Virus record (IMG/VR): IMGVR_UViG_3300033463_000016
Coordinates: 1-61,994 of that record
Length of the DNA stretch: 61,994 bases
Direction: 5' to 3' (one strand)
Source: a virus
Taxonomy: Duplodnaviria; Heunggongvirae; Uroviricota; Caudoviricetes
A program made the translations under genes and the position numbers. Each line of letters starts with the position of its first letter. Position 1 is the stretch's first letter. Shown piece by piece: positions 14,101-21,883 of this stretch. The notes below the pieces were generated by a model. The model worked only from the letters and a program-made list of their open reading frames with translations, did no database searches and had not been told where the DNA came from.

Positions 14101-15513
14101 CATCAATTCAAGTTATTCTCCGCTGATGCTCCTTCATTTACTATGGCAATTGATTATCAATTCTCAAACGATGTAAATGATTATGCTCCGGCTGATGAGA
14201 AAACATTAGTTTCTTGTTTCGCAAATCCAGATAACGGTAATGATGGCTTTGCTTTAAGGTATAAGTCAAACAAAGCAAATATTCTTTGGGGCGATAAAAA
14301 TCAGAATGTAGCAACTGAAAAGAATCGTGATATGGTTGTTTTACGTCATAAACAAGGTAGTGATGTATTATATATCTATGCTTTTAATGGTGCCGATCTG
14401 CAAGCAAATTACTATTCAAATAAAATTGTAACTGCAACTTTGACTCGCACATCATTCAGTGATACCGATGCTCCGCTTGTATTTGGTGGAATTGCTGAAT
14501 ATGATTCAGGAAATCATACATATACCGCCACTGATACATCTACCTATATAGGCGCAGGTGTGATCTTCTGGTGTAAGATATGGTATGATGATCTTGGCGA
14601 TGCAGTTGCAAGAAAACTTGCTTCTTGGACACGCGACGAAGATCGTCAAGAATATTTCGAGGTACAATTGGATTCTGCTGGAACACTTTTCGGTAGCCCA
14701 TATGTTATGACTGGCACTTCGACAAATGCAAGTGCATCGTTTATGTCTAACAACCTATTGAGATACCTGCATCAAATGAATAGCGGTAACTACAATAGAG
14801 GTGGTTGGGGTGGTGACACAACATCTACCGCAACATATGAGGCATCGATGCACTACTTTATGCAGAACAAGTTCTATCCTGCGATACCTGATGAAATAAG
14901 GAATCTTATTGTTCAAGTTAAAGTGCCTTCTACTGTTGGTAATAGTTCATCTACACTTGCCAATTACGATAGTTACACTTACATTCCTTGTTTGAGGGAA
15001 GTCACACCTGCTAATGATGGTACAAGTAAGAACGAACCATACTTATCAGAAGGTTCTTGCATCAGTTGGAACACAACTCAATACCGTAGAATATGTTTCC
15101 GAGATGTTATTACGTTGGATACCTCTTTACTTGCTAATGGCAACCAGAAATTCACTGGCTCGTCAGAACCTATTTTTGGTCAGAATAAAGGCTTCTATGA
15201 CGCTGACAGTAATCCAAATGGCGTTAGGGAGTATGATATTTGGTATATCGATAACAACACGGCAAGTAGGATTTATCTATCCGCAGCAACTCTGAGGAAG
15301 AAGAACATCACGCCTACCGTTTGGATTACTCAGGGAACTGAGCGTATCGGCGGTTGGGTAGGCGCCAATAACTATTTCTTGCGTTCTCCGTATGCCGGTG
15401 CCACTAACTATTTCTGGGGTGTGGACTACAGTGGAGTTACCAACTACAACAGCGCTTACAACTGGAATGGCGTGCGTCCCTGCTTCTCATTCTATGCTAC
15501 TATTACTCAATAA
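8140..15513 (+). CDS. 2457-aa DGR target protein (receptor-binding/adhesin-like): LamG-like, CotH-kinase-like, LRR-like and B-repeat-like regions, C-terminal C-type-lectin-fold (DUF6273-like) variable domain
   Basis: GGAGGTG SD. VR occupies codons 2407-2451 ('YFLRSP...GVRPCF'). 'DNRAKN' and 'YDFD' are CotH-like motifs; 'LEVLNIENC/LEEFYAEGS' are LRR-like. Confidence 0.85.
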   Translation: MPNQIIGRISPGASPTAEDTRVFDTETALNNYLASPRAKAGQGIKLLDSTSGRYKAYIIQGTAGSFEKTPMGAGDYVGNSLPSVADGDRDLIYFIYDSEDDLYRQYRFNGTKYVLVGGNSYDKSQTYTNTEIDTKLADKQESYVASSLPIDGDENTDYYIGNSQDGFVHYRYFGGLIDEFIAVGGDSYTKEEVDNKIASKVVYYYYLSYGTAIVEENNEQIEKNNILRLWRYTDPSNVGDTTGEVGEVVKWIEIQGGGSGSTRATNMTFERVTPANIVTSAGAVESDGIIITASFSDYESDGGEAVSATYTVSVGNKVVETGVAVQCKDSSNNQLYDEDENPIYNVFDVTQYCSSGQQTISIAITDEYGNMVIRKWNVEIIDIRIESQFDDSYSRAIGSQINFTYKLFGSTSKVVHFILDGVEIGTLTTTGTGETTYPIASTYATYGTHFLDCYVTTVVNGTTIYSNHIYKDIVCYDVAGSVPVIGSMYRYDSDSHIGYGVVRINQYDTLNIPYTVYDPSTSSPTVTLSVDGMTVNTLELSSHSNVWAFKGSEIGSHTLIISCGATSIEIDVDVIDLGYDIAPVTSGLAFDFDPTGITNSSSNRLWTDENDSNVKLSVSENFDWDNGGYQIDSTTGESYFLVKAGTRATISYNLFGTNPKYDGAEFKIVFKTSNVRDVEATFLSCLSDSIGLRMDVHSAILANSTNIQNPLWLPYSEEDIIEFEYNINPSVNGLSYRPLIMTYEDGVPFKPLSYTSGTFNSTTGEWDGGAQLHQTTPVPITIGSDDCDVYIYRMKAYNTFLSDSQILNNFIADSRNSETMVKRYTRNQIYTQDNKLTPESVAEACPNLRVIKISAPYFTNDKDEKVPDTTIECIYKNGDPILENWIATGCKHSGQGTTSNDYGFAGRNLLLYLNDSNTVITLGDEETTVNKVALSYDRQTPTSIPTNVFNIKVNIASSENANNALLAKRFNDYLPYKMPAQKRDSRVKNTMEFVNCVVFIQETADNVNTHREFADKNWHFYALGNLGDAKKTDSTRVNDKNDPKEFVVEIKDNYKPNSGFNTGTDSYPISSGQWVAGNSAYDSLYNNWDTSFEFRYTKAEYDPKNNITSPQAEANKQKWRDFYEWVITSSDANFVAQLGNWFIVDSALYFYVFTHRYTMIDNRAKNTFWHWSKVYITEAEAAELGETEASYYTVDNAKAAINEGYRFEMWGYDFDTALGINNSGVMSKQYRYGREDSDYREEGDSTSGYLYNEATSVFWCRLRDLMPSEIEGMYKTVAENHGTAWDAEHFIEEFDEWQAQFPEEIWRLNYEREYTRTYQSGTDRFMTQMMQGRKKYHRRQWERDQAPYFGTKYGLPYYKNTDRISFRCNTPIFEVDPSRVFATQATANTYLSSANAAAEQNVKIKQQDNSYKLYVIKSVNNALTYIPIVEPNYDLTITPFSDIYLNAEFGNEGETTERIAIRAKAGQSYTIECPENRRMTSTMIKIYCASRIQALSDLSPCYIEDNDFSKAKKLRELIIGNDTLGYKSFITSLTLSNNQILEVLNIENCNTFTDQSVDLSNCGNLEEFYAEGSNITEVVFANYGKVNTVEMPNTLVNLTMRNLNNLEDNDFSLPTYNTMRNVTLVNGVLDTKTLMGNLSPYLTTLYLSGFDWSFGSVDFTDPSNFLIEKLYNVNSVTLKGTIRLDRIPQRYVTKYAEKWGSDFHIVGTVIPEYSITFINDDKTAILSKSDNTTPYVEWVDGESATYNPITENLVNTPTKAQSDKYTYTFSHWAVYANNTVGAEYTFGRVLSSNITLIAVYTSTLRTFTVNWYTAPVNTNILSGEWNSKNNLANRGEPLHTETNVQYGSEVSYDIAQKIICTNGSYGGMDYIESYSFISWNDSTGCVTGNMDVYAVWRYAKIYKSNGNLILEDALSNRKKLKDMTSAEIAAVCANGEATTFFDDKDYFDFVMGHDYTFSNVDQYEIVPLGEELHLDGITPVIPVDSQGHQFKLFSADAPSFTMAIDYQFSNDVNDYAPADEKTLVSCFANPDNGNDGFALRYKSNKANILWGDKNQNVATEKNRDMVVLRHKQGSDVLYIYAFNGADLQANYYSNKIVTATLTRTSFSDTDAPLVFGGIAEYDSGNHTYTATDTSTYIGAGVIFWCKIWYDDLGDAVARKLASWTRDEDRQEYFEVQLDSAGTLFGSPYVMTGTSTNASASFMSNNLLRYLHQMNSGNYNRGGWGGDTTSTATYEASMHYFMQNKFYPAIPDEIRNLIVQVKVPSTVGNSSSTLANYDSYTYIPCLREVTPANDGTSKNEPYLSEGSCISWNTTQYRRICFRDVITLDTSLLANGNQKFTGSSEPIFGQNKGFYDADSNPNGVREYDIWYIDNNTASRIYLSAATLRKKNITPTVWITQGTERIGGWVGANNYFLRSPYAGATNYFWGVDYSGVTNYNSAYNWNGVRPCFSFYATITQ
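15358..15491 (+). repeat. DGR variable repeat (VR)
   Basis: 134-bp ungapped match to 16426-16559 with 14 mismatches, all at TR adenines. Confidence 0.97.
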
Positions 15514-15523
15514 CTTTACAACA

Positions 15524-15571
15524 AAGTCCCTACAAATCTGGCGGTAACTCGCTTACCGCTTGTAGGGGCTT
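15524..15571 (+). promoter_or_regulatory. Hairpin/cruciform downstream of VR (DGR target-recognition element and/or terminator)
   Basis: Outer stem AAGTCCCTACAA/TTGTAGGGGCTT (one GU pair), 5-nt bulge, inner stem GCGGTAA/TTACCGC with a 5-nt loop. Confidence 0.65.
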
Positions 15572-15596
15572 ATTAAATACGTGACAGTTATATTCA

Positions 15597-16400
15597 ATGA
15601 GTGTAATAACAGCGAAAAGACATACAGCAAAGAGCGAGTTTGAGCATACATTCTCGCTCTTTTATGCTGATTCGAGAAGATTACTATCTAAAGTCCCTAA
15701 AAGACGTGAAAGATTTATTTGTCCAAAAATTATTTGGCTTAATAATTCTATTTACAACGACTTGATGATAGTGCAGGAGATTTTATTTACAAAGCAAAAA
15801 GATAAAAAGATTGAGAAGCAAAACCGAATTAAAAACGCATTAGAGAAAATTGCGGAATTGGAAAAACCTATTATGGTATATTCAAATATTATGGCAATGC
15901 CTTTTGATAAACAGTGTAATTGGTGTAAAACACTTAATAAGGAAATTGCCTTATTAAATGGAATGTTGGAAAACGAGTCTGATAAATCCAACTGTAGAAT
16001 TGAAGTATTAGATTGGGAAAAGATACACAAATTTAAAGCCGTGAATAATATGTGTTCTTTACATAGATATACTCACGGCAAAGCCGTTAGAGCGGTCAAT
16101 ATATTCGATAATGGAGATACAGCGTTGGTTATCGAATTAATTGATGAAGCATTTTATAACGTCATTAAGGCAAATTCCTCTTTTCCAAATAATAAAGAGG
16201 AATATGAAATGAGGATCAAGCGGATTGAAAGGGCGTTACAATGCTTAAATGAAATTCAAAGACCTATGTTATCTTACTTTAATGTTATGAAATATAGCAA
16301 TAGAGTTATGAGAGAATGGTCAGATATTTTGAATAAGGAAATAAAGCTATTAAAAGGTTTGCAGAAGTCCGATAAAAAGCGGTTCTGCAAACTTTCTTAA
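15597..16400 (+). CDS. avd: DGR accessory protein, Avd-like, tandem two-domain form (267 aa)
   Basis: Lies between VR and TR; basic and helical; 'MSV...KR' start and 'EI.LLKG..KSD.KR' end; internal duplication with 18/46 identity, ungapped. Confidence 0.8.
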   Translation: MSVITAKRHTAKSEFEHTFSLFYADSRRLLSKVPKRRERFICPKIIWLNNSIYNDLMIVQEILFTKQKDKKIEKQNRIKNALEKIAELEKPIMVYSNIMAMPFDKQCNWCKTLNKEIALLNGMLENESDKSNCRIEVLDWEKIHKFKAVNNMCSLHRYTHGKAVRAVNIFDNGDTALVIELIDEAFYNVIKANSSFPNNKEEYEMRIKRIERALQCLNEIQRPMLSYFNVMKYSNRVMREWSDILNKEIKLLKGLQKSDKKRFCKLS

Positions 16401-16425
16401 TATACACACTGGTTAAATCCTATAC

Positions 16426-16559
16426 GTAGGCGCCAATAACTATTTCTTGCGTTCTCCGAATACCGGTAACACTAACAATTTCTGGAATGTGAACAACAAT
16501 GGAGTTACCAACAACAACAACGCTAACAACTGGAATGGCGTGCGTCCCTGATTCTCATT
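16426..16559 (+). ncRNA. DGR template repeat (TR)
   Basis: Non-coding near-copy of VR with 42 adenines and 17 AAY triplets in the VR reading frame. Confidence 0.97.
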
Positions 16560-16871
16560 TTGTAGTAGCTATGTATTAAGAGTGAATTGAGATTAGGCGA
16601 TCTTTTGGATTGTCCGATATTTTCATAGGAATTGAGAAGGAGGATTTGACCATCTATTTGAAAAAATAGTAAATAATATGTTTTTGTGTTTAATGAAAAC
16701 TCGCTGTTGTGGCGATCCGTTACGGTTGAGTGGAACGCTTCTTGCATAGATAAGAGTTTGCTGAACTTATTTTTATACTCAACTATGTTAGCCGGTTACA
16801 GCAAAATATACAAAGGCTAAACGGAGGAAAAGACTAAATAACTAAATACAATACGAAAGGAGGTAGTATTT

Positions 16872-18161
16872 TTGAATCAAAAAGAAAGAATCAGAGCAAG
16901 GATTGAAAGAGATAAGGCACGTCGGGCTGCCAAGAAAGCTCTACGCAATGAGAAAACAAAAGCTGACGACTATGATAAAGTTATGACAATGCAGAATTAT
17001 TATGGTGCTTTGAAGAAATGTCGTAAGGGCGTTATGTGGAAAGGAAAGCCACAGAAGTATTGTCAAACTTCAAACACACAGGTTACAGGAACTTTGGAAC
17101 ATATAGATGATTATGAGTTGCCGCCATTAGAGAATACTTCTCAAATTACTTTATATGAACGCGGTAAGAAAAGAATCATTACACCAATCCAATTTAGTGA
17201 TCGAATGACTCAACGTGTCCTCTGCGATTACTCTTTGATTCCGATAATTCAGCCAACCTTGATTTACGATAATGGTGCAAGCACTGAAGGAAAGGGAACT
17301 GATTTTGCTCGGAAAAGAGTTGAAATGTTTTTAAGGGACTCCATTAAAGAATACGGTGAAGATTTTTACATCTTATCATTTGATTTCAAGAGCTTTTTCG
17401 ATAGCATCCCACATTCGACCTGCTACAATGTTCTGAATGAATATTATTCTGACAAAAGAATTGTTGAACTAATTATTGAGGTGGTTAAGTCTTATCAAAG
17501 ACCAGAAATATTAAAGATAGAAGATGATTCAAAAAGAACACTCCTGTTAGATTTACTTGAAAATAACCAAATGAAGGGAATCTGTCTTGGTAGCCAAATA
17601 TCTCAAATACTCGCTTTGGTTGTGCCTAATCAGTTGGATCACTACATAAAGGACAAGCAACGTATGAAGCGGTATGTTAGATATATGGATGACGGAATTA
17701 TAATTCATAAGAATAAAGAAGTTTTACAAGAATTGTATGAAGGTATGAGAGATGTTTGTAATAATTTAGGATTAACGTTTAATGAAAAGAAAACGAAAAT
17801 TGTGAAAGCTACAAAAGGCTTTTCTTTCCTAAAGATCAAATACCGTGTTGTTGGTTCACGTCTTGTAAAGACCCTGGCAAGGAGTGGGATAGTTAGAATG
17901 AGGAGGAAACTTAAAAAGTTTAAGATCAAAGTTGATAATGGCGTAATGAAATTGGACGATGTGTATAATTCTATGCAATCGTGGTTGTCACACGCCAAGT
18001 TAGCCCAATCCTATCATACGGTCAGGAGTATGTTGAAATTATATGATGAATTATTTGATGGTTATAAAATAACTAAGAAATATTTTAAAAAGGAGGACAA
18101 CAATGAGATATTACAAAGTGATAAATGGGCTGAATTTCGTTGGGATAGCTACGACGACTGA
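16872..18161 (+). CDS. DGR reverse transcriptase
   Basis: AAGGAGG SD with TTG start; 'DFKSFFDSI', 'GICLGSQISQ' (GxxxSQ, typical of DGR RTs) and 'YVRYMDD'; no intron maturase or endonuclease extension. Confidence 0.95.
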   Translation: MNQKERIRARIERDKARRAAKKALRNEKTKADDYDKVMTMQNYYGALKKCRKGVMWKGKPQKYCQTSNTQVTGTLEHIDDYELPPLENTSQITLYERGKKRIITPIQFSDRMTQRVLCDYSLIPIIQPTLIYDNGASTEGKGTDFARKRVEMFLRDSIKEYGEDFYILSFDFKSFFDSIPHSTCYNVLNEYYSDKRIVELIIEVVKSYQRPEILKIEDDSKRTLLLDLLENNQMKGICLGSQISQILALVVPNQLDHYIKDKQRMKRYVRYMDDGIIIHKNKEVLQELYEGMRDVCNNLGLTFNEKKTKIVKATKGFSFLKIKYRVVGSRLVKTLARSGIVRMRRKLKKFKIKVDNGVMKLDDVYNSMQSWLSHAKLAQSYHTVRSMLKLYDELFDGYKITKKYFKKEDNNEILQSDKWAEFRWDSYDD

Positions 18162-19518: not shown

Positions 19519-20670
19519 TTATAGGTCATCAAGTGTTTTAACGGCAAGGTATCCTTCAGCTTCCGCAAAGTGAATATACGTATCGAGAGTAATCTGCACA
19601 CTTGCGTGACCTAATAATGTTGAGATAGTTTTAATATCAACTTTCTTTCGGAACAATCTGTTTGCAAAAGTATGCCTCAATGAATGCGTTGATCCTTTGT
19701 TTAATTTTGTATTTTTGACAATCCTGCGAAATGTGCGATCATATTGTTGTGGTGCAAGGACTCCCCCATTTTTAGCACAGACAATATATTCACTATTAGG
19801 ATGTTCATCAAACATACGTTGCAAGGCGCATTCAGCCATTTCGTTCAGTGGAACCTTACGATAGCCGGAATAAGTTTTCGTTGTCATAGCAATGGTTTCA
19901 TATCCGGTTGCATTTCCCTCTGAATCACGTGTCTTGACTGTTTGCACGTTTTCGCGGATATAAAGAAGATGGTTATCTTTGTCCCAATCTGATTTTTTTA
20001 ATCCAACAATTTCGCCACGTCTTGCTCCTGTGTTCAACTGTAAGATATAAGCGTCGCCATAAAGATATTTAGGCGTTTCAGAGTTTGGATATAATCTTCT
20101 GCATTCTTCTATAATTAACCGAGCTTCATTCTCATCATACCAAACCATTTCTTTTTTGGGGAATGTTGATTCTGCTGGCATTATCACGCCTTCCATTGGA
20201 TTCTTGGCTATGTCATTTTGACTTAATGCGTGTTTGATAACCATATTAGTTCCATCGTATGTTTTCTTAACTCTGGAATACGAAAGACCCTGCCTTTTAA
20301 TATCATTCAGCATCTTCTGAATATCGTTGGTTGTGATTTCAGAAATTCGCAAAATACCGATATGGGGGAATATTTGATTTTTGAATGTCCCTTCGAGTGT
20401 ATCATAACTCGATGCTTTCATTGTTGTCATTTTGTAAGTAACAAGCCATTTCTTTGCGTAGGTTTCAAAAGAAGTCGTGACGGGATCAATATGAGAATCC
20501 AAATCAAATTTATTCATTTGTTTTTGAACTTCCATTTTTGTAGTCCCAGAGAAATAGATGACTTCCGGCTTACCATTCGACTTATATCTGCCGGTATGGA
20601 TTCTTCCATAAAATTTTGACCCACGCTTGTAGATGCTGCCTGTACCCTTTGGACGCCTTTTGTTTGCCAT
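19519..20670 (-). CDS. int: Tyrosine recombinase (phage integrase)
   Basis: AAGGAG SD before ATG 20670; 'LNTGARRGE', 'HSLRHTFA' and 'LGHASVQITLDTY' give the catalytic R/HxxR/H/Y residues; N-terminal arm-binding-like region. Confidence 0.95.
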   Translation of the reverse strand: MANKRRPKGTGSIYKRGSKFYGRIHTGRYKSNGKPEVIYFSGTTKMEVQKQMNKFDLDSHIDPVTTSFETYAKKWLVTYKMTTMKASSYDTLEGTFKNQIFPHIGILRISEITTNDIQKMLNDIKRQGLSYSRVKKTYDGTNMVIKHALSQNDIAKNPMEGVIMPAESTFPKKEMVWYDENEARLIIEECRRLYPNSETPKYLYGDAYILQLNTGARRGEIVGLKKSDWDKDNHLLYIRENVQTVKTRDSEGNATGYETIAMTTKTYSGYRKVPLNEMAECALQRMFDEHPNSEYIVCAKNGGVLAPQQYDRTFRRIVKNTKLNKGSTHSLRHTFANRLFRKKVDIKTISTLLGHASVQITLDTYIHFAEAEGYLAVKTLDDL

Positions 20671-20721
20671 AATAAGCACTCCTTTATAATTAGAATATGT
20701 AAAAACAAGTGATTATTCTGG

Positions 20722-20766
20722 ATAGTGCTACACTTTGTAGATTTGTAGCACTATTGTAGCACTATT
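20722..20766. repeat. Putative integrase arm-type sites: TGTAGCACTAT, one inverted copy plus two tandem direct copies
   Basis: ATAGTGCTACA at 20722-32; TGTAGCACTAT at 20744-54 and 20755-65. Confidence 0.8.
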
Positions 20767-20848
20767 TTCTGATATTAGATGATACTATCTGATAAACAGT
20801 ATTAAAGAAAAAAAAGAGCCGTTTAAACGAACAAATTTTCTAATATCA

Positions 20849-20877
20849 ATTATAGCATATATGTTCTAATATTGCAA
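20849..20877 (-). promoter_or_regulatory. sigmaA-type promoter, probably for int
   Basis: TTGCAA-17 nt-TATAAT with an extended TG on the - strand. Confidence 0.7.
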
Positions 20878-20930
20878 GGAATGATTCTAATTATTTCAAA
20901 ACGCCCAAAATGGCTTATCTATGCGGTTTT

Positions 20931-20968
20931 TGAAAGAAAAACACCTTAACCCAACAGGATTAAGGTGT
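20931..20968 (-). terminator. Terminator directly after tRNA-Cys
   Basis: - strand ACACCTTAATCC-TGTT-GGGTTAAGGTGT followed by TTTTCTTTC. Confidence 0.8.
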
Positions 20969-20973
20969 CATCT

Positions 20974-21048
20974 TGGAGGCGACGACCAGATTTGAACTGG
21001 TGAATCAGGCTTTTGCAGAGCCGTGCCTTACCACTTGGCTACGTCGCC
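20974..21048 (-). tRNA. tRNA-Cys (GCA), complete, CCA encoded
   Basis: GGCGACG/CGTCGCC acceptor stem, GCC/GGC D-stem, CGGCT-CTGCAAA-AGCCT anticodon arm, ACCAG-TTCAAAT-CTGGT T-arm, U73 and CCA. Confidence 0.95.
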
Positions 21049-21072
21049 GGACAGATTATTAAATTGAGAAAT

Positions 21073-21089
21073 AAGGTTTTGCAGACCTT
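21073..21089 (-). other. Isolated tRNA-Cys anticodon stem-loop (AAGGT-CTGCAAA-ACCTT); candidate attP core
   Basis: Perfect 5-bp stem around a 7-nt Cys anticodon loop, located between the two clusters of arm-type repeats. Confidence 0.6.
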
Positions 21090-21147
21090 GATTCCTCATT
21101 CAAATATTGCAGGTGACACCTATATTTTTAAGTATGGTTTCTGTTTC

Positions 21148-21170
21148 TGTAGCACTATTGTAGCACTATT
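21148..21170. repeat. Putative integrase arm-type sites (second cluster)
   Basis: TGTAGCACTATTGTAGCACTATT, identical to 20744-20766. Confidence 0.8.
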
Positions 21171-21190
21171 ATATTTCTAAATAAGAAATT

Positions 21191-21394
21191 TCAATACCGA
21201 AACGTCTTATTTATATACTTGTCTAACCATTTTTCAAAGTTCAGCTTTGTGACATACAGGCGATTATTCAACTTAAACGAAGGGAATCCATCACTTCTCA
21301 TTAGTTCATATGCACGAGTTTTTCCTAATGCCAATATTCGTTGAATATCGTTTACTGTATATACCACAATATCACAATCTGCATTATTTGTCAA
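21191..21394 (-). CDS. xis: Excisionase/recombination directionality factor (HTH_17-like)
   Basis: AAGGAG SD before TTG 21394; 'YTVNDIQRIL.LGKTRAYELM...FPSFKL..R..V' winged-helix pattern; adjacent to attP/int. Confidence 0.75.
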   Translation of the reverse strand: MTNNADCDIVVYTVNDIQRILALGKTRAYELMRSDGFPSFKLNNRLYVTKLNFEKWLDKYINKTFRY

Positions 21395-21445
21395 TATTAT
21401 CTCCTTATAATGTATATACATATTATTGTAGTGGGGCGAGTTATC

Positions 21446-21883
21446 TCACCCGCCCCACCAATCTTTCCTCAGTTCTTTACGCCAGATCATTATTCCTTTG
21501 TTCTTTTCTGCTTCTTCCTCGGTATTAAATACACGCATCTGTAAACTTTTTGGATTTGATAAAGTTAAATCATTTGTTGGCTGTCCCGCTTGCGTACCAC
21601 TTATGGTAAAACTATAATAGAACTTTCGTTTTTGCGTTATTTTATATAGTCGCATTTTGACTACTTTATTTGTGATGTCATCTTCCGGCATAACAACGTA
21701 GTATTCTGATCCTACGGTTAATTGTTTATTTAGATGATTCATTATAATACCGAGTGCATCAGACAATCCCGCGACATAGTGTTCTTGGTAACTATCCTTT
21801 ATTCCCGCCATCTCACGGGTTATTTTGTTTTGTAATTCTTTGATGGCGGGATTCACACTATGTAATGTTGCTTGAATTTCCAC
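21446..21883 (-). CDS. Hypothetical protein
   Basis: 145-aa ORF in the - strand gene run. Confidence 0.6.
   Translation of the reverse strand: MEIQATLHSVNPAIKELQNKITREMAGIKDSYQEHYVAGLSDALGIIMNHLNKQLTVGSEYYVVMPEDDITNKVVKMRLYKITQKRKFYYSFTISGTQAGQPTNDLTLSNPKSLQMRVFNTEEEAEKNKGIMIWRKELRKDWWGG

What the first reader, a model, noticed from the sequence alone, without database searches (positions are those of the whole stretch)
20722..21170. attP with an isolated tRNA-Cys anticodon arm followed by a complete, recoded replacement tRNA-Cys
Seen: two clusters of an 11-bp repeat (TGTAGCACTAT) lie between int and xis. On the - strand they enclose, in order, an isolated arm AAGGT-CTGCAAA-ACCTT (21089-21073), a 24-nt gap, a full tRNA-Cys (21048-20974) and a terminator. 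Known: tyrosine integrases often cross over in the 7-nt anticodon loop of a tRNA gene, and attP usually restores the gene by carrying the displaced half. Here the sequence after the arm (ATTTCTCAATTT...) is not a tRNA 3' half. Inference: integration truncates the host tRNA-Cys, and the phage places an intact copy directly behind the host tRNA promoter. That copy has a different anticodon stem (CGGCT/AGCCT), which would stop it acting as a second att site. Also, the left flank GAATCAAGGT is the inverted complement of ACCTTGATTC, the expected host right-hand core site if the host tRNA shares the phage tRNA's GATTC variable loop.
Basis: partly seen in the sequence, partly recalled or inferred. 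Interest (0 to 1): 0.85.

Follow-up and report, generated by a model that had tools for sequence, protein, structure and literature searches.

The report
Phage attP with built-in replacement tRNA-Cys
This is the attachment site of a 171-kb temperate gut phage that cuts the host's cysteine tRNA gene in two without repairing it and brings its own complete copy to sit just behind the host promoter: a new, compact form of the recently described "tRNA-dependent lysogeny".

Summary
Between an HTH_17 (Xis-like) gene and a tyrosine integrase lie five exact copies of an 11-mer (the only copies in the 171-kb genome), an isolated copy of a tRNA-Cys anticodon arm, a 24-nt spacer, a complete tRNA-Cys and a terminator.

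Five related viral contigs share this layout, and so does the reconstructed attP of one prophage. That prophage belongs to a relative (Int 76% identical) in a Clostridiales MAG, and it settles the interpretation.
- attL is host promoter, host tRNA-Cys 5' half, CTGCAAA, phage spacer, phage tRNA-Cys, int.
- attR is xis, arm sites, CTGCAAA, host tRNA 3' half.
- A sister genome holds the intact gene. The common core is 13 bp.
- Neither junction folds as a tRNA, and no other tRNA-Cys was found in the MAG.

It is not a new principle. It is tRNA-dependent lysogeny (Guerrero-Bustamante and Hatfull 2024), also noted for Lj965 and for Sinorhizobium meliloti prophages.

Three features are new here:
- the setting: large Clostridia phages of the gut or rumen, targeting tRNA-Cys;
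- the replacement tRNA lies inside attP, 14-27 nt from the core;
- its anticodon stem was not found in any sampled bacterial tRNA-Cys.

Expression of the phage tRNA and its necessity for the lysogen are untested.

The parts
21191..21394 (-). Xis-like small HTH protein, a candidate recombination directionality factor. The likely start is TTG 21394, behind the RBS AAGGAG; an in-frame ATG lies at 21421.
   Evidence: Pfam HTH_17, E 4e-08. Conserved at the same place in all relatives. Lies at the attR end of the prophage in the lysogen. The excisionase role is inferred from family and position only.
21148..21170 (-). P-arm: two direct arm-type Int-binding repeats (unit AATAGTGCTACA).
   Evidence: Exact repeats. 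Nearly invariant in all seven aligned attP regions, with one base changed in one copy in L003 and L006. Remain with xis at attR in the lysogen.
21085..21097 (-). Left core half-site C (GAGGAATCAAGGT), the inverted image of the right-hand side of a tRNA-Cys anticodon arm plus variable loop.
   Evidence: The pattern GGAATNANGGT is conserved across the free phages. In the prophage of G001 it reads GGGATTAGAGT, which matches that host's GAGT stem.
21078..21084 (-). CTGCAAA, a copy of the tRNA-Cys anticodon loop. It is the presumed overlap (strand-exchange) region and the centre of the common core.
   Evidence: attL, attR and the intact attB of the relative's lysogen share GAGTCTGCAAAAC around it. 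Invariant in all attP copies.
21066..21077 (-). Right core half-site C' (ACCTTATTTCTC).
   Evidence: ACCTTAT is conserved in 5 of 7 aligned attP regions; L005 and L007 read ACCTAAA. It is on the phage side of attL in the lysogen.
21049..21065 (-). Variable remainder of the 24-nt spacer between the core and the phage tRNA. Not a tRNA 3' half.
   Evidence: The whole spacer (21049-21072) varies in length (14-27 nt) and in sequence among relatives. Similarity to a tRNA-Cys 3' half is weak.
20974..21048 (-). Complete phage tRNA-Cys(GCA) with discriminator U73 and an encoded CCA. It is the replacement for the disrupted host gene.
   Evidence: ARAGORN. Rfam 63.4 bits. Six pairs show compensatory changes among the phage and host copies. 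It is the only tRNA-Cys among the 28 tRNAs of the genome. It lies 26 nt behind the truncated host gene at attL of the relative.
20931..20969 (-). Intrinsic terminator of the tRNA-Cys unit.
   Evidence: 13-bp stem plus a T run. The stem covaries among relatives.
20907..20930 (-). Conserved 24-nt block AAAACCGCATAGATAAGCCATTTT of unknown role, within the P' arm. It could be a site for an accessory protein.
   Evidence: Nearly invariant in all seven attP regions while its flanks vary. No function was tested.
20849..20877 (-). Promoter-like site for int (TTGCAA, 17 nt, TG-TATAAT), with GAAC/GTTC-type palindromes in and just after it.
   Evidence: Promoter scan scored 10 of 12 with an extended -10. 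The hexamers are conserved in relatives.
20722..20766 (-). P'-arm: two direct arm-type repeats and one inverted one.
   Evidence: Exact repeats. Invariant in all relatives. Remain with int at attL in the lysogen.
19519..20670 (-). Tyrosine integrase, 383 aa.
   Evidence: Pfam Phage_integrase 4.4e-26, Phage_int_SAM_3 and Phage_int_M. PHROG 1 integrase, 1.8e-65. Relatives are 76-90% identical.

Best explanation
The 449-bp region is the attP of a temperate 171-kb phage of gut or rumen Clostridia that uses tRNA-dependent lysogeny at the host tRNA-Cys gene.

How it works. Int, a tyrosine recombinase, binds the five arm-type 11-mers and a core that imitates the DNA of the tRNA-Cys anticodon arm: two inverted half-sites around CTGCAAA. 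Strand exchange with the host gene takes place in or next to the anticodon-loop sequence. Only about 11-17 bp are shared, and the phage DNA that follows the core is not a tRNA 3' half, so the host gene is split and not rebuilt.

The phage carries a complete tRNA-Cys with its own terminator inside attP, 24 nt beyond the core. After integration this copy lies directly behind the host promoter and the dead 5' half of the host gene. It is presumably transcribed from that promoter and cut out by RNase P, replacing the lost tRNA. Its anticodon stem (GGCT/AGCC) differs from the host types, which probably keeps Int from using it as a second att site. Excision, probably aided by the HTH_17 protein, would restore the host gene.

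What is shown and what is inferred.
- Shown: the anatomy, its conservation, and the attL, attR and attB junctions of a relative.
- Inferred: that the window phage does the same, that the tRNA is expressed from the host promoter, that it is needed for the lysogen to survive, and the purpose of the changed stem.
For: 1. Anatomy. The arm-type repeats occur only here. The core arm is unique. The tRNA is genuine.

2. Conservation. Five viral contigs with Int 76-90% identical keep the order xis, 2 repeats, core, variable spacer, tRNA-Cys, terminator, conserved block, promoter, 2+1 repeats, int. One of them is a complete 143.8-kb genome with terminal repeats. The T stem and acceptor pair 7:65 of the tRNA change in a compensatory way.

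3. Lysogen. In the Clostridiales MAG G001, contig C31 reads host promoter, then the first 30 nt of the host tRNA-Cys, then CTGCAAA, then the phage spacer, phage tRNA-Cys and int. Contig C26 reads xis, arm repeats, CTGCAAA, then the last 38 nt of the host tRNA-Cys, a terminator and tRNA-Val. The phage sides are syntenic with window 2.3-20.7 kb and 21.2-31.3 kb.

4. Empty site. Sister genome G013 has the intact tRNA-Cys. Its two halves match attL (100% over 41 nt) and attR (97% over 178 nt) and overlap by 13 nt, GAGTCTGCAAAAC.

5. No repair. No tRNA is detected at either junction. No other tRNA-Cys was found in G001 with either the phage tRNA or the host 3' half as query.

6. Promoter. A host promoter TTGACA-17-TAGAAT (11 of 12, with TG) lies 41 nt before the truncated gene. 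No comparable promoter lies between xis and the tRNA in the window.

7. Matching host genes. The arm AGGTCTGCAAAACCT is in tRNA-Cys genes of 92 of 301 sampled genomes of the class. The phage tRNA's stem was in none: five hits were chance matches in coding sequence and the sixth was the prophage itself.

8. Precedent. The same principle has been demonstrated experimentally in mycobacteriophages (PMC10865867).
Against: - Only one lysogen was found, and it is of a relative, in a MAG. No attL or attR of the window phage itself turned up in 401 genomes of the order, in the metagenome contigs or in IMG/VR.
- The MAG may be incomplete, so a second tRNA-Cys could have been missed. At least one related genome (G034) shows two matches to the tRNA-Cys 3' half, i.e. 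probably two copies. Loss of one copy need not be lethal in every host.
- The rest of the prophage was not found in the MAG, so it could be a remnant.
- Expression of the phage tRNA, its dependence on the host promoter and its necessity are untested.
- The exact cleavage positions are not known. Only the 13-bp interval is.
- The phage carries 27 other tRNAs, so this one may also, or mainly, serve lytic translation.
Confidence: 0.82

Rival explanations
1. Classical tRNA-targeting attP. The full tRNA-Cys is the homology core, crossover occurs inside it, and the host gene is rebuilt. On this view the isolated arm is a meaningless relic.
For: Most tRNA-integrating elements work this way (Williams 2002, as cited in PMC11476347; Islander, PMC4383910, listed). 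The full tRNA is 80-84% identical to host tRNA-Cys genes.
Against: In the lysogen both junctions lie in the isolated arm. The complete phage tRNA sits intact 26 nt inside attL, and the host 3' half is left at attR. The isolated arm is as conserved as the arm-type sites while its surroundings vary.
Confidence: 0.03
2. Integration at tRNA-Cys does happen, but the phage tRNA-Cys is not a replacement. It is one more member of the phage's large tRNA set, serving lytic translation or countering tRNA-cleaving defences, and hosts survive on a second tRNA-Cys gene. Its place in attP would then be incidental.
For: The genome has 28 tRNAs covering 19 amino acids. At least one related genome (G034) shows two matches to the tRNA-Cys 3' half. 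Phage tRNAs are known to evade anticodon nucleases (van den Berg et al. 2023, in the reference list of PMC11476347).
Against: - The other 27 tRNAs lie in two clusters at 83.8-93.1 kb and 133.7-135.7 kb. Only tRNA-Cys is separate, and it is the isotype of the disrupted gene.
- The linkage core-spacer-tRNA is kept in all seven aligned attP regions despite free variation of the spacer.
- No second tRNA-Cys was found in the lysogen.
- Cluster L mycobacteriophages show the same split between clustered lytic tRNAs and a separate lysogeny tRNA.
Confidence: 0.1
3. The junctions in the MAG are assembly or binning artefacts: chimeric contigs joined through shared tRNA k-mers. On this view they are not a real integration.
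For: tRNA sequences do break and mis-join short-read assemblies. Logan contigs of the source runs all break inside the tRNA. The rest of the prophage is not in the bin.
Against: - Two independent contigs (18 kb and 101 kb) each cross a junction.
- The two host halves are reciprocal and add up exactly to the intact gene of a sister species, with a 13-nt overlap.
- The phage halves are the two sides of attP, split at the same point.
- The prophage's left half-site carries the host-type GAGT, which a chimera would not produce.
Confidence: 0.03

Closest known systems
tRNA-dependent lysogeny of actinobacteriophages (Fionnbharth K4, Cluster L, Gaia, Gordonia CQ2/DL; Guerrero-Bustamante and Hatfull, mBio 2024, PMC10865867)
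   Same: - A tyrosine integrase with arm-type sites flanking attP.
- attB inside a host tRNA gene.
- A common core of only 8-17 bp, so no tRNA is rebuilt.
[quoted passage not shown]
- In Cluster L the lysogeny tRNA also stands apart from a cluster of other tRNAs.
   Different: - Host phylum: Clostridia rather than Actinobacteria.
- Isotype: Cys rather than Lys, Ile2 or Leu.
- Genome size: 171 kb.
- Position of the tRNA: there it lies elsewhere in the genome and, in Fionnbharth, has its own demonstrated promoter. Here it is inside attP, 14-27 nt from the core, so it lands behind the host tRNA promoter.
- Secondary att sites: the mBio authors speculated that a plasmid-borne phage tRNA can serve as a secondary attB. 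Here the tRNA's anticodon stem differs from the core.
- Evidence: necessity of the tRNA was shown there by genetics and is not shown here.
[quoted passage not shown]
   Same: Prophages whose integration leaves a host tRNA unrepaired and that carry a cognate tRNA (PMC10865867 discussion; PMC11476347).
   Different: In the Lj965 record the four tRNA genes lie 12.8-13.4 kb from the prophage end, not at the attachment site. Neither case has been tested functionally. They involve a different isotype (tRNA-Leu in S. meliloti) and different hosts.
Classical anticodon-loop integration sites in tRNA genes (Williams 2002 sublocation classes; Islander islands)
   Same: - Crossover at the 7-nt anticodon loop, flanked by the symmetric stem.
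- int lies next to the junction that carries the host 5' half.
- Arm-type sites lie on both sides.
   Different: Those elements carry the displaced 3' part of the tRNA and regenerate the gene (PMC4383910 abstract). Here the sequence after the core is not a tRNA 3' half, and the junction is not a tRNA.

Membership tests
tRNA-dependent lysogeny (PMC10865867) | A phage tyrosine integrase and an attP with arm-type sites flanking a core. | tested here: met
   Pfam and PHROG integrase hits. Five arm-type 11-mers confined to 20722-21169. Conserved in relatives.
tRNA-dependent lysogeny (PMC10865867) | attB overlaps a host tRNA gene. | tested here: met
   attL and attR of a relative's prophage split the tRNA-Cys of MAG G001, and the intact gene is present in G013, G008, G002 and G014. 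For the window phage itself this rests on conservation of the core and on matching tRNA-Cys arms in 92 of 301 genomes.
tRNA-dependent lysogeny (PMC10865867) | A short common core, so that no functional tRNA is rebuilt at attL or attR. | tested here: met
   The core is 13 bp in the lysogen. ARAGORN finds no tRNA at either junction apart from the phage copy and tRNA-Val. For the window, 11-17 bp would be shared, depending on the host type.
tRNA-dependent lysogeny (PMC10865867) | The phage encodes a tRNA with the same isotype and anticodon as the disrupted one. | tested here: met
   tRNA-Cys(GCA) at 20974-21048, with compensatory changes among relatives. It is the only Cys tRNA in the genome.
tRNA-dependent lysogeny (PMC10865867) | The phage tRNA is required for viable lysogens. 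| not testable with these tools
   The only pointer is that no other tRNA-Cys was found in the lysogen MAG. The MAG may be incomplete.
Classical tRNA-restoring attP | attP carries the displaced part of the tRNA, so the gene is regenerated. | tested here: not met
   The sequence after the core is not a tRNA 3' half, and the hybrid at attL is not called as a tRNA.
tRNA (Rfam RF00005), for 20974-21048 | A cloverleaf scoring above the gathering threshold, with pairs maintained in relatives. | tested here: met
   63.4 bits against a threshold of 29. Of 19 predicted pairs, 6 show double changes.
Excisionase / RDF, for the 21191-21394 product | A small DNA-binding protein that directs excision. | tested here: inconclusive
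   Only the generic HTH_17 domain is found. The NCBIfam hit to the ICEBs1 excisionase is far below its cut-off. The position next to the P arm is suggestive.

The most novel reading that the evidence does not exclude
The attP is a self-contained gene-swap cassette. By placing a promoter-less tRNA-Cys between the core and the P' arm, the phage makes expression of the replacement tRNA depend on integration, through capture of the host tRNA promoter. A phage-specific anticodon stem insulates the tRNA from its own integrase, and possibly from host enzymes that recognise the native tRNA-Cys. If so, lysogens translate cysteine codons entirely with a viral tRNA. Such a design has not been described for tRNA-dependent lysogeny, and it could be common in large gut phages.
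Probability: 0.35. Interest if true: 0.6.

Novelty: new variant of a known kind. Interest (0 to 1): 0.5.

Why it matters
- It extends tRNA-dependent lysogeny, demonstrated so far only in actinobacteriophages, to large uncultured Clostridia phages of the gut and rumen and to a new isotype. The authors of the 2024 paper predicted such an extension but did not show it.
- The arrangement is the most compact seen so far. Core, replacement tRNA, terminator, int promoter and int fit within about 1.6 kb. That would make a ready-made integration vector design for Clostridia, provided the tRNA is kept.
- It gives a concrete role to one of the many tRNAs in big phages.
- It offers a search rule for finding more cases: an isolated anticodon arm next to a full tRNA of the same isotype, between Int arm-type sites.
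- It warns that tools which look for long tRNA-derived repeats to delimit prophages will miss such elements.

Tried and rejected
- **More lysogens.** An integrase search in 401 genomes of the host's order found only G001. The metagenome scan for core-spacer-tRNA gave only attP forms plus an unrelated marine chromosomal locus. Two IMG/VR scans for attL-type and attR-type junctions gave only ordinary tRNA-Cys genes or nothing.
- **Phage database.** blastn of the int-attP region against 50,697 phage records matched only the tRNA, at about 82%.
- **Sequencing runs.** No RNA holder was listed. Laying Logan contigs of four runs showed that contigs break inside the tRNA, so no junctions could be read. 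One run from an independent study holds a 139-nt contig spanning tRNA, spacer and arm, which is the attP form. One unresolved record joins a tRNA-Cys-like 5' part to the arm; it could be a host tRNA-Cys with the same arm or an attL.
- **Spacer as a decayed 3' half.** The idea was tested by shuffling. It was weak for the window (18 of 2000, uncorrected for 18 comparisons) and absent in the relatives, so it was dropped as evidence.
- **Rest of the prophage in G001.** It was not found with 20 kb of window DNA.
- **Flank synteny.** Protein-level synteny of the host flanks between G001 and G013 beyond the tRNAs was not detectable in the 1.5 kb available.
- **Int N-terminus.** A Pfam search of the first 75 residues for an arm-binding domain found nothing significant.
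- **A promoter for the tRNA in the free phage.** None was convincing. TTGAAA-18-AATAGT scored 9 of 12, and a TATAAT overlapping the first arm site is not conserved in L005 and L007.

Full report
**What is there**

The window is the first 62 kb of a 170,934-bp IMG/VR virus record that CheckV rates complete. On the minus strand the genes run nrdD, nrdG, dUTPase, an unknown ORF and a 67-aa HTH_17 protein. A 520-bp gap follows, and then a 383-aa tyrosine integrase.

Reading 5' to 3' on the minus strand, the gap holds:
- two direct copies of ATAGTGCTACA (21169-21148);
- about 60 nt of partly conserved sequence;
- the arm AAGGT-CTGCAAA-ACCTT (21089-21073);
- a 24-nt spacer;
- tRNA-Cys(GCA) (21048-20974);
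- a 13-bp-stem terminator;
- a 24-nt conserved block;
- a promoter-like site, TTGCAA-17-TG-TATAAT;
- two more direct copies and one inverted copy of the 11-mer (20765-20722).

The five 11-mers are the only ones in the whole genome, where 0.12 are expected. The arm is unique. The tRNA scores 63.4 bits with Rfam.

**The layout is conserved**

The integrase has five relatives in IMG/VR at 76-90% identity. One of them is a complete 143.8-kb genome with terminal repeats. Two metagenome fragments belong to the same group. All show the same order of parts.

In an alignment of seven attP regions, the (nearly) invariant islands are the arm-type repeats, the core GTCTGCAAAACCT with its left flank GGAATNANGGT, the tRNA, the 24-nt block, the int promoter hexamers and the RBS. 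The spacer between core and tRNA varies freely in sequence and in length (14-27 nt).

The tRNA is under selection as a tRNA. The T stem takes three different fully paired forms and acceptor pair 7:65 switches between G-C and U-A. Comparison with the host genes adds A-U at 7:65 and the two changed anticodon-stem pairs, giving six pairs with double changes in all. Each related record holds a single tRNA-Cys. In the window's genome, tRNA-Cys is the only one of 28 tRNAs that lies outside the two tRNA clusters.

**A lysogen of a relative maps the crossover**

- Upstream of that int lie the P' repeats, promoter, conserved block, terminator and a complete phage-type tRNA-Cys.
- Then comes a 26-nt spacer ending in ACCTT, then CTGCAAA.
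- Beyond that are the first 30 nt of a different tRNA-Cys, preceded by a strong promoter, TTGACA-17-TG-TAGAAT. This is attL.
- On another contig of the same MAG, xis and the two P repeats are followed by GGGATTAGAGT, CTGCAAA and then the last 38 nt of a tRNA-Cys, a terminator and tRNA-Val. This is attR.

The phage sides of the two contigs are syntenic with window 2.3-20.7 kb and 21.2-31.3 kb. So the prophage is opened exactly between int and xis.

Related genomes hold the uninterrupted tRNA-Cys; in three of the four inspected (G013, G008, G002) it is followed by a terminator and tRNA-Val. The G013 gene matches the host side of attL at 100% over 41 nt and the host side of attR at 97% over 178 nt. 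The two matches overlap by 13 nt, GAGTCTGCAAAAC. Strand exchange therefore lies within those 13 bp, centred on the anticodon loop.

Neither junction is recognised as a tRNA. Searches of the MAG with the phage tRNA and with the host 3' half found no further tRNA-Cys.

**What this means for the window phage**

No lysogen of the window phage itself was found, so its attB is inferred.
- Its core shares 11 bp with the G001-type tRNA-Cys.
- AGGTCTGCAAAACCT occurs in 92 of 301 sampled genomes of the same class, with none in the reversed control.
- All twelve places inspected are ordinary tRNA-Cys genes, and two carry the whole 17-nt arm. With such a host the shared core would be 16-17 bp, still ending at the anticodon stem.

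The prophage in G001 has GAGT where the free phages have AGGT or TGGT on the left of the loop. This matches its own host and breaks the hairpin complementarity. So the arm acts as a DNA site that tracks the host gene, not as an RNA hairpin.

The left flank of the core, read in inverse, resembles the right-hand side of the host arm plus variable loop: ACCTTGATTCC against ACCTTTATTCC or ACTCTGATTCC. It is what one expects of inverted core-type Int half-sites.

**The replacement tRNA**

After integration the phage tRNA lies 26 nt (G001) or 24 nt (window) behind the dead host 5' half, and so downstream of the host tRNA promoter. In the free phage no convincing promoter lies between xis and the tRNA. 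Transcription from the host promoter and release by RNase P are inferred, not shown.

The phage tRNA's anticodon stem GGCT/AGCC is invariant in all phage copies. It was found in no bacterial tRNA-Cys among 301 sampled genomes. Five hits were chance matches in coding regions and the sixth was the prophage itself. The stem differs from both host types at the two pairs next to the loop, which are the positions shared by attP and attB.

The mycobacteriophage paper speculates that a plasmid-borne phage tRNA can indeed be used as a secondary attB. The idea remains an inference, and evasion of a tRNA-targeting host enzyme is an alternative.

**Comparison with what is known**

The principle is published. 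It is tRNA-dependent lysogeny, in which a tyrosine integrase recombines through an 8-17-bp core inside a host tRNA gene, the tRNA is not rebuilt, and a phage tRNA of the same isotype complements the loss and is required for lysogeny (PMC10865867). That paper also points to Lactobacillus johnsonii prophage Lj965. A 2024 survey reports two S. meliloti prophages that inactivate a tRNA-Leu and carry a substitute (PMC11476347).

The present case meets four of the five defining features. The fifth, necessity, cannot be tested here.

It differs in several ways:
- in host (Clostridia of the gut or rumen; the source run is labelled bovine gut);
- in isotype (Cys);
- in phage size (171 kb);
- above all in geometry.

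In Fionnbharth the tRNA overlaps gene 37 and has its own promoter. In Cluster L it lies in the tRNA region. In Lj965 the tRNAs lie 12.8-13.4 kb from the prophage end. Here the tRNA is part of attP itself.

I therefore rate the finding a new variant of a known kind. It is of moderate interest: a neat and well-supported extension, not a new principle.

**Limits**
- There is only one lysogen, of a relative, in a MAG of unknown completeness.
- The remainder of that prophage was not found in the bin.
- At least one related genome (G034) shows two matches to the tRNA-Cys 3' half, so disruption may not be lethal in every host.
- Expression, necessity, the role of the HTH_17 protein and the exact cleavage sites are all untested.

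Noticed in passing
window 20907-20930 (minus strand): A 24-nt block, AAAACCGCATAGATAAGCCATTTT, lies just after the tRNA terminator. It is nearly invariant in all seven aligned attP regions while its surroundings vary. It has no Rfam match and no obvious role; it might be a site for an accessory protein in the P' arm.
   Followed up: partly
window 20820-20877; L004, L005 and L008 just downstream of the int promoter: GAAC-N4-GTTC-like palindromes lie in and just after the int promoter (TAGAACATATATTCTA in the relatives; GAACATATATGC and GAAAATTTGTTC in the window). From memory they resemble LexA (Cheo) boxes of Firmicutes, which would tie int expression to the SOS response.
   Followed up: no
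whole genome G000: 83.8-93.1 kb and 133.7-135.7 kb: There are 27 further tRNA genes in two clusters, covering every amino acid except Val and Cys. Cys is supplied only by the attP copy.
   Followed up: partly
L049 and L054 (metagenome contigs Ga0066382_10024748 and Ga0310123_10040486): This is an unrelated bacterial chromosomal locus: amt, glnB, tRNA-Trp, tRNA-Leu, tRNA-Cys, ABC transporter. It also has an isolated AAAGGTCTGCAAAACCT 31 nt upstream of an intact tRNA-Cys with the same arm. No integrase lies within the 2-3 kb held. It may be a scar of an integration or a partial duplication.
   Followed up: partly
window 20400-21600, run X3 (table 5c): A contig from an independent gut metagenome joins a tRNA-Cys-like 5' part (laid on 21025-21048) through one extra base to the arm at 21089. 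It could be a host tRNA-Cys carrying the exact arm, or an attL of this phage. It could not be resolved with contigs.
   Followed up: partly
window 15358-18161: A reverse transcriptase (RVT_1) lies just downstream of int. Earlier notes of this scan describe a complete DGR here. It is not part of this finding.
   Followed up: no
window 21168-21173: A TATAAT hexamer overlaps the first P-arm repeat in the window and in L003, L004, L006 and the G001 prophage, but not in L005 or L007. If it is a -10 element, Int binding could shut off read-through into the core and the tRNA.
   Followed up: no
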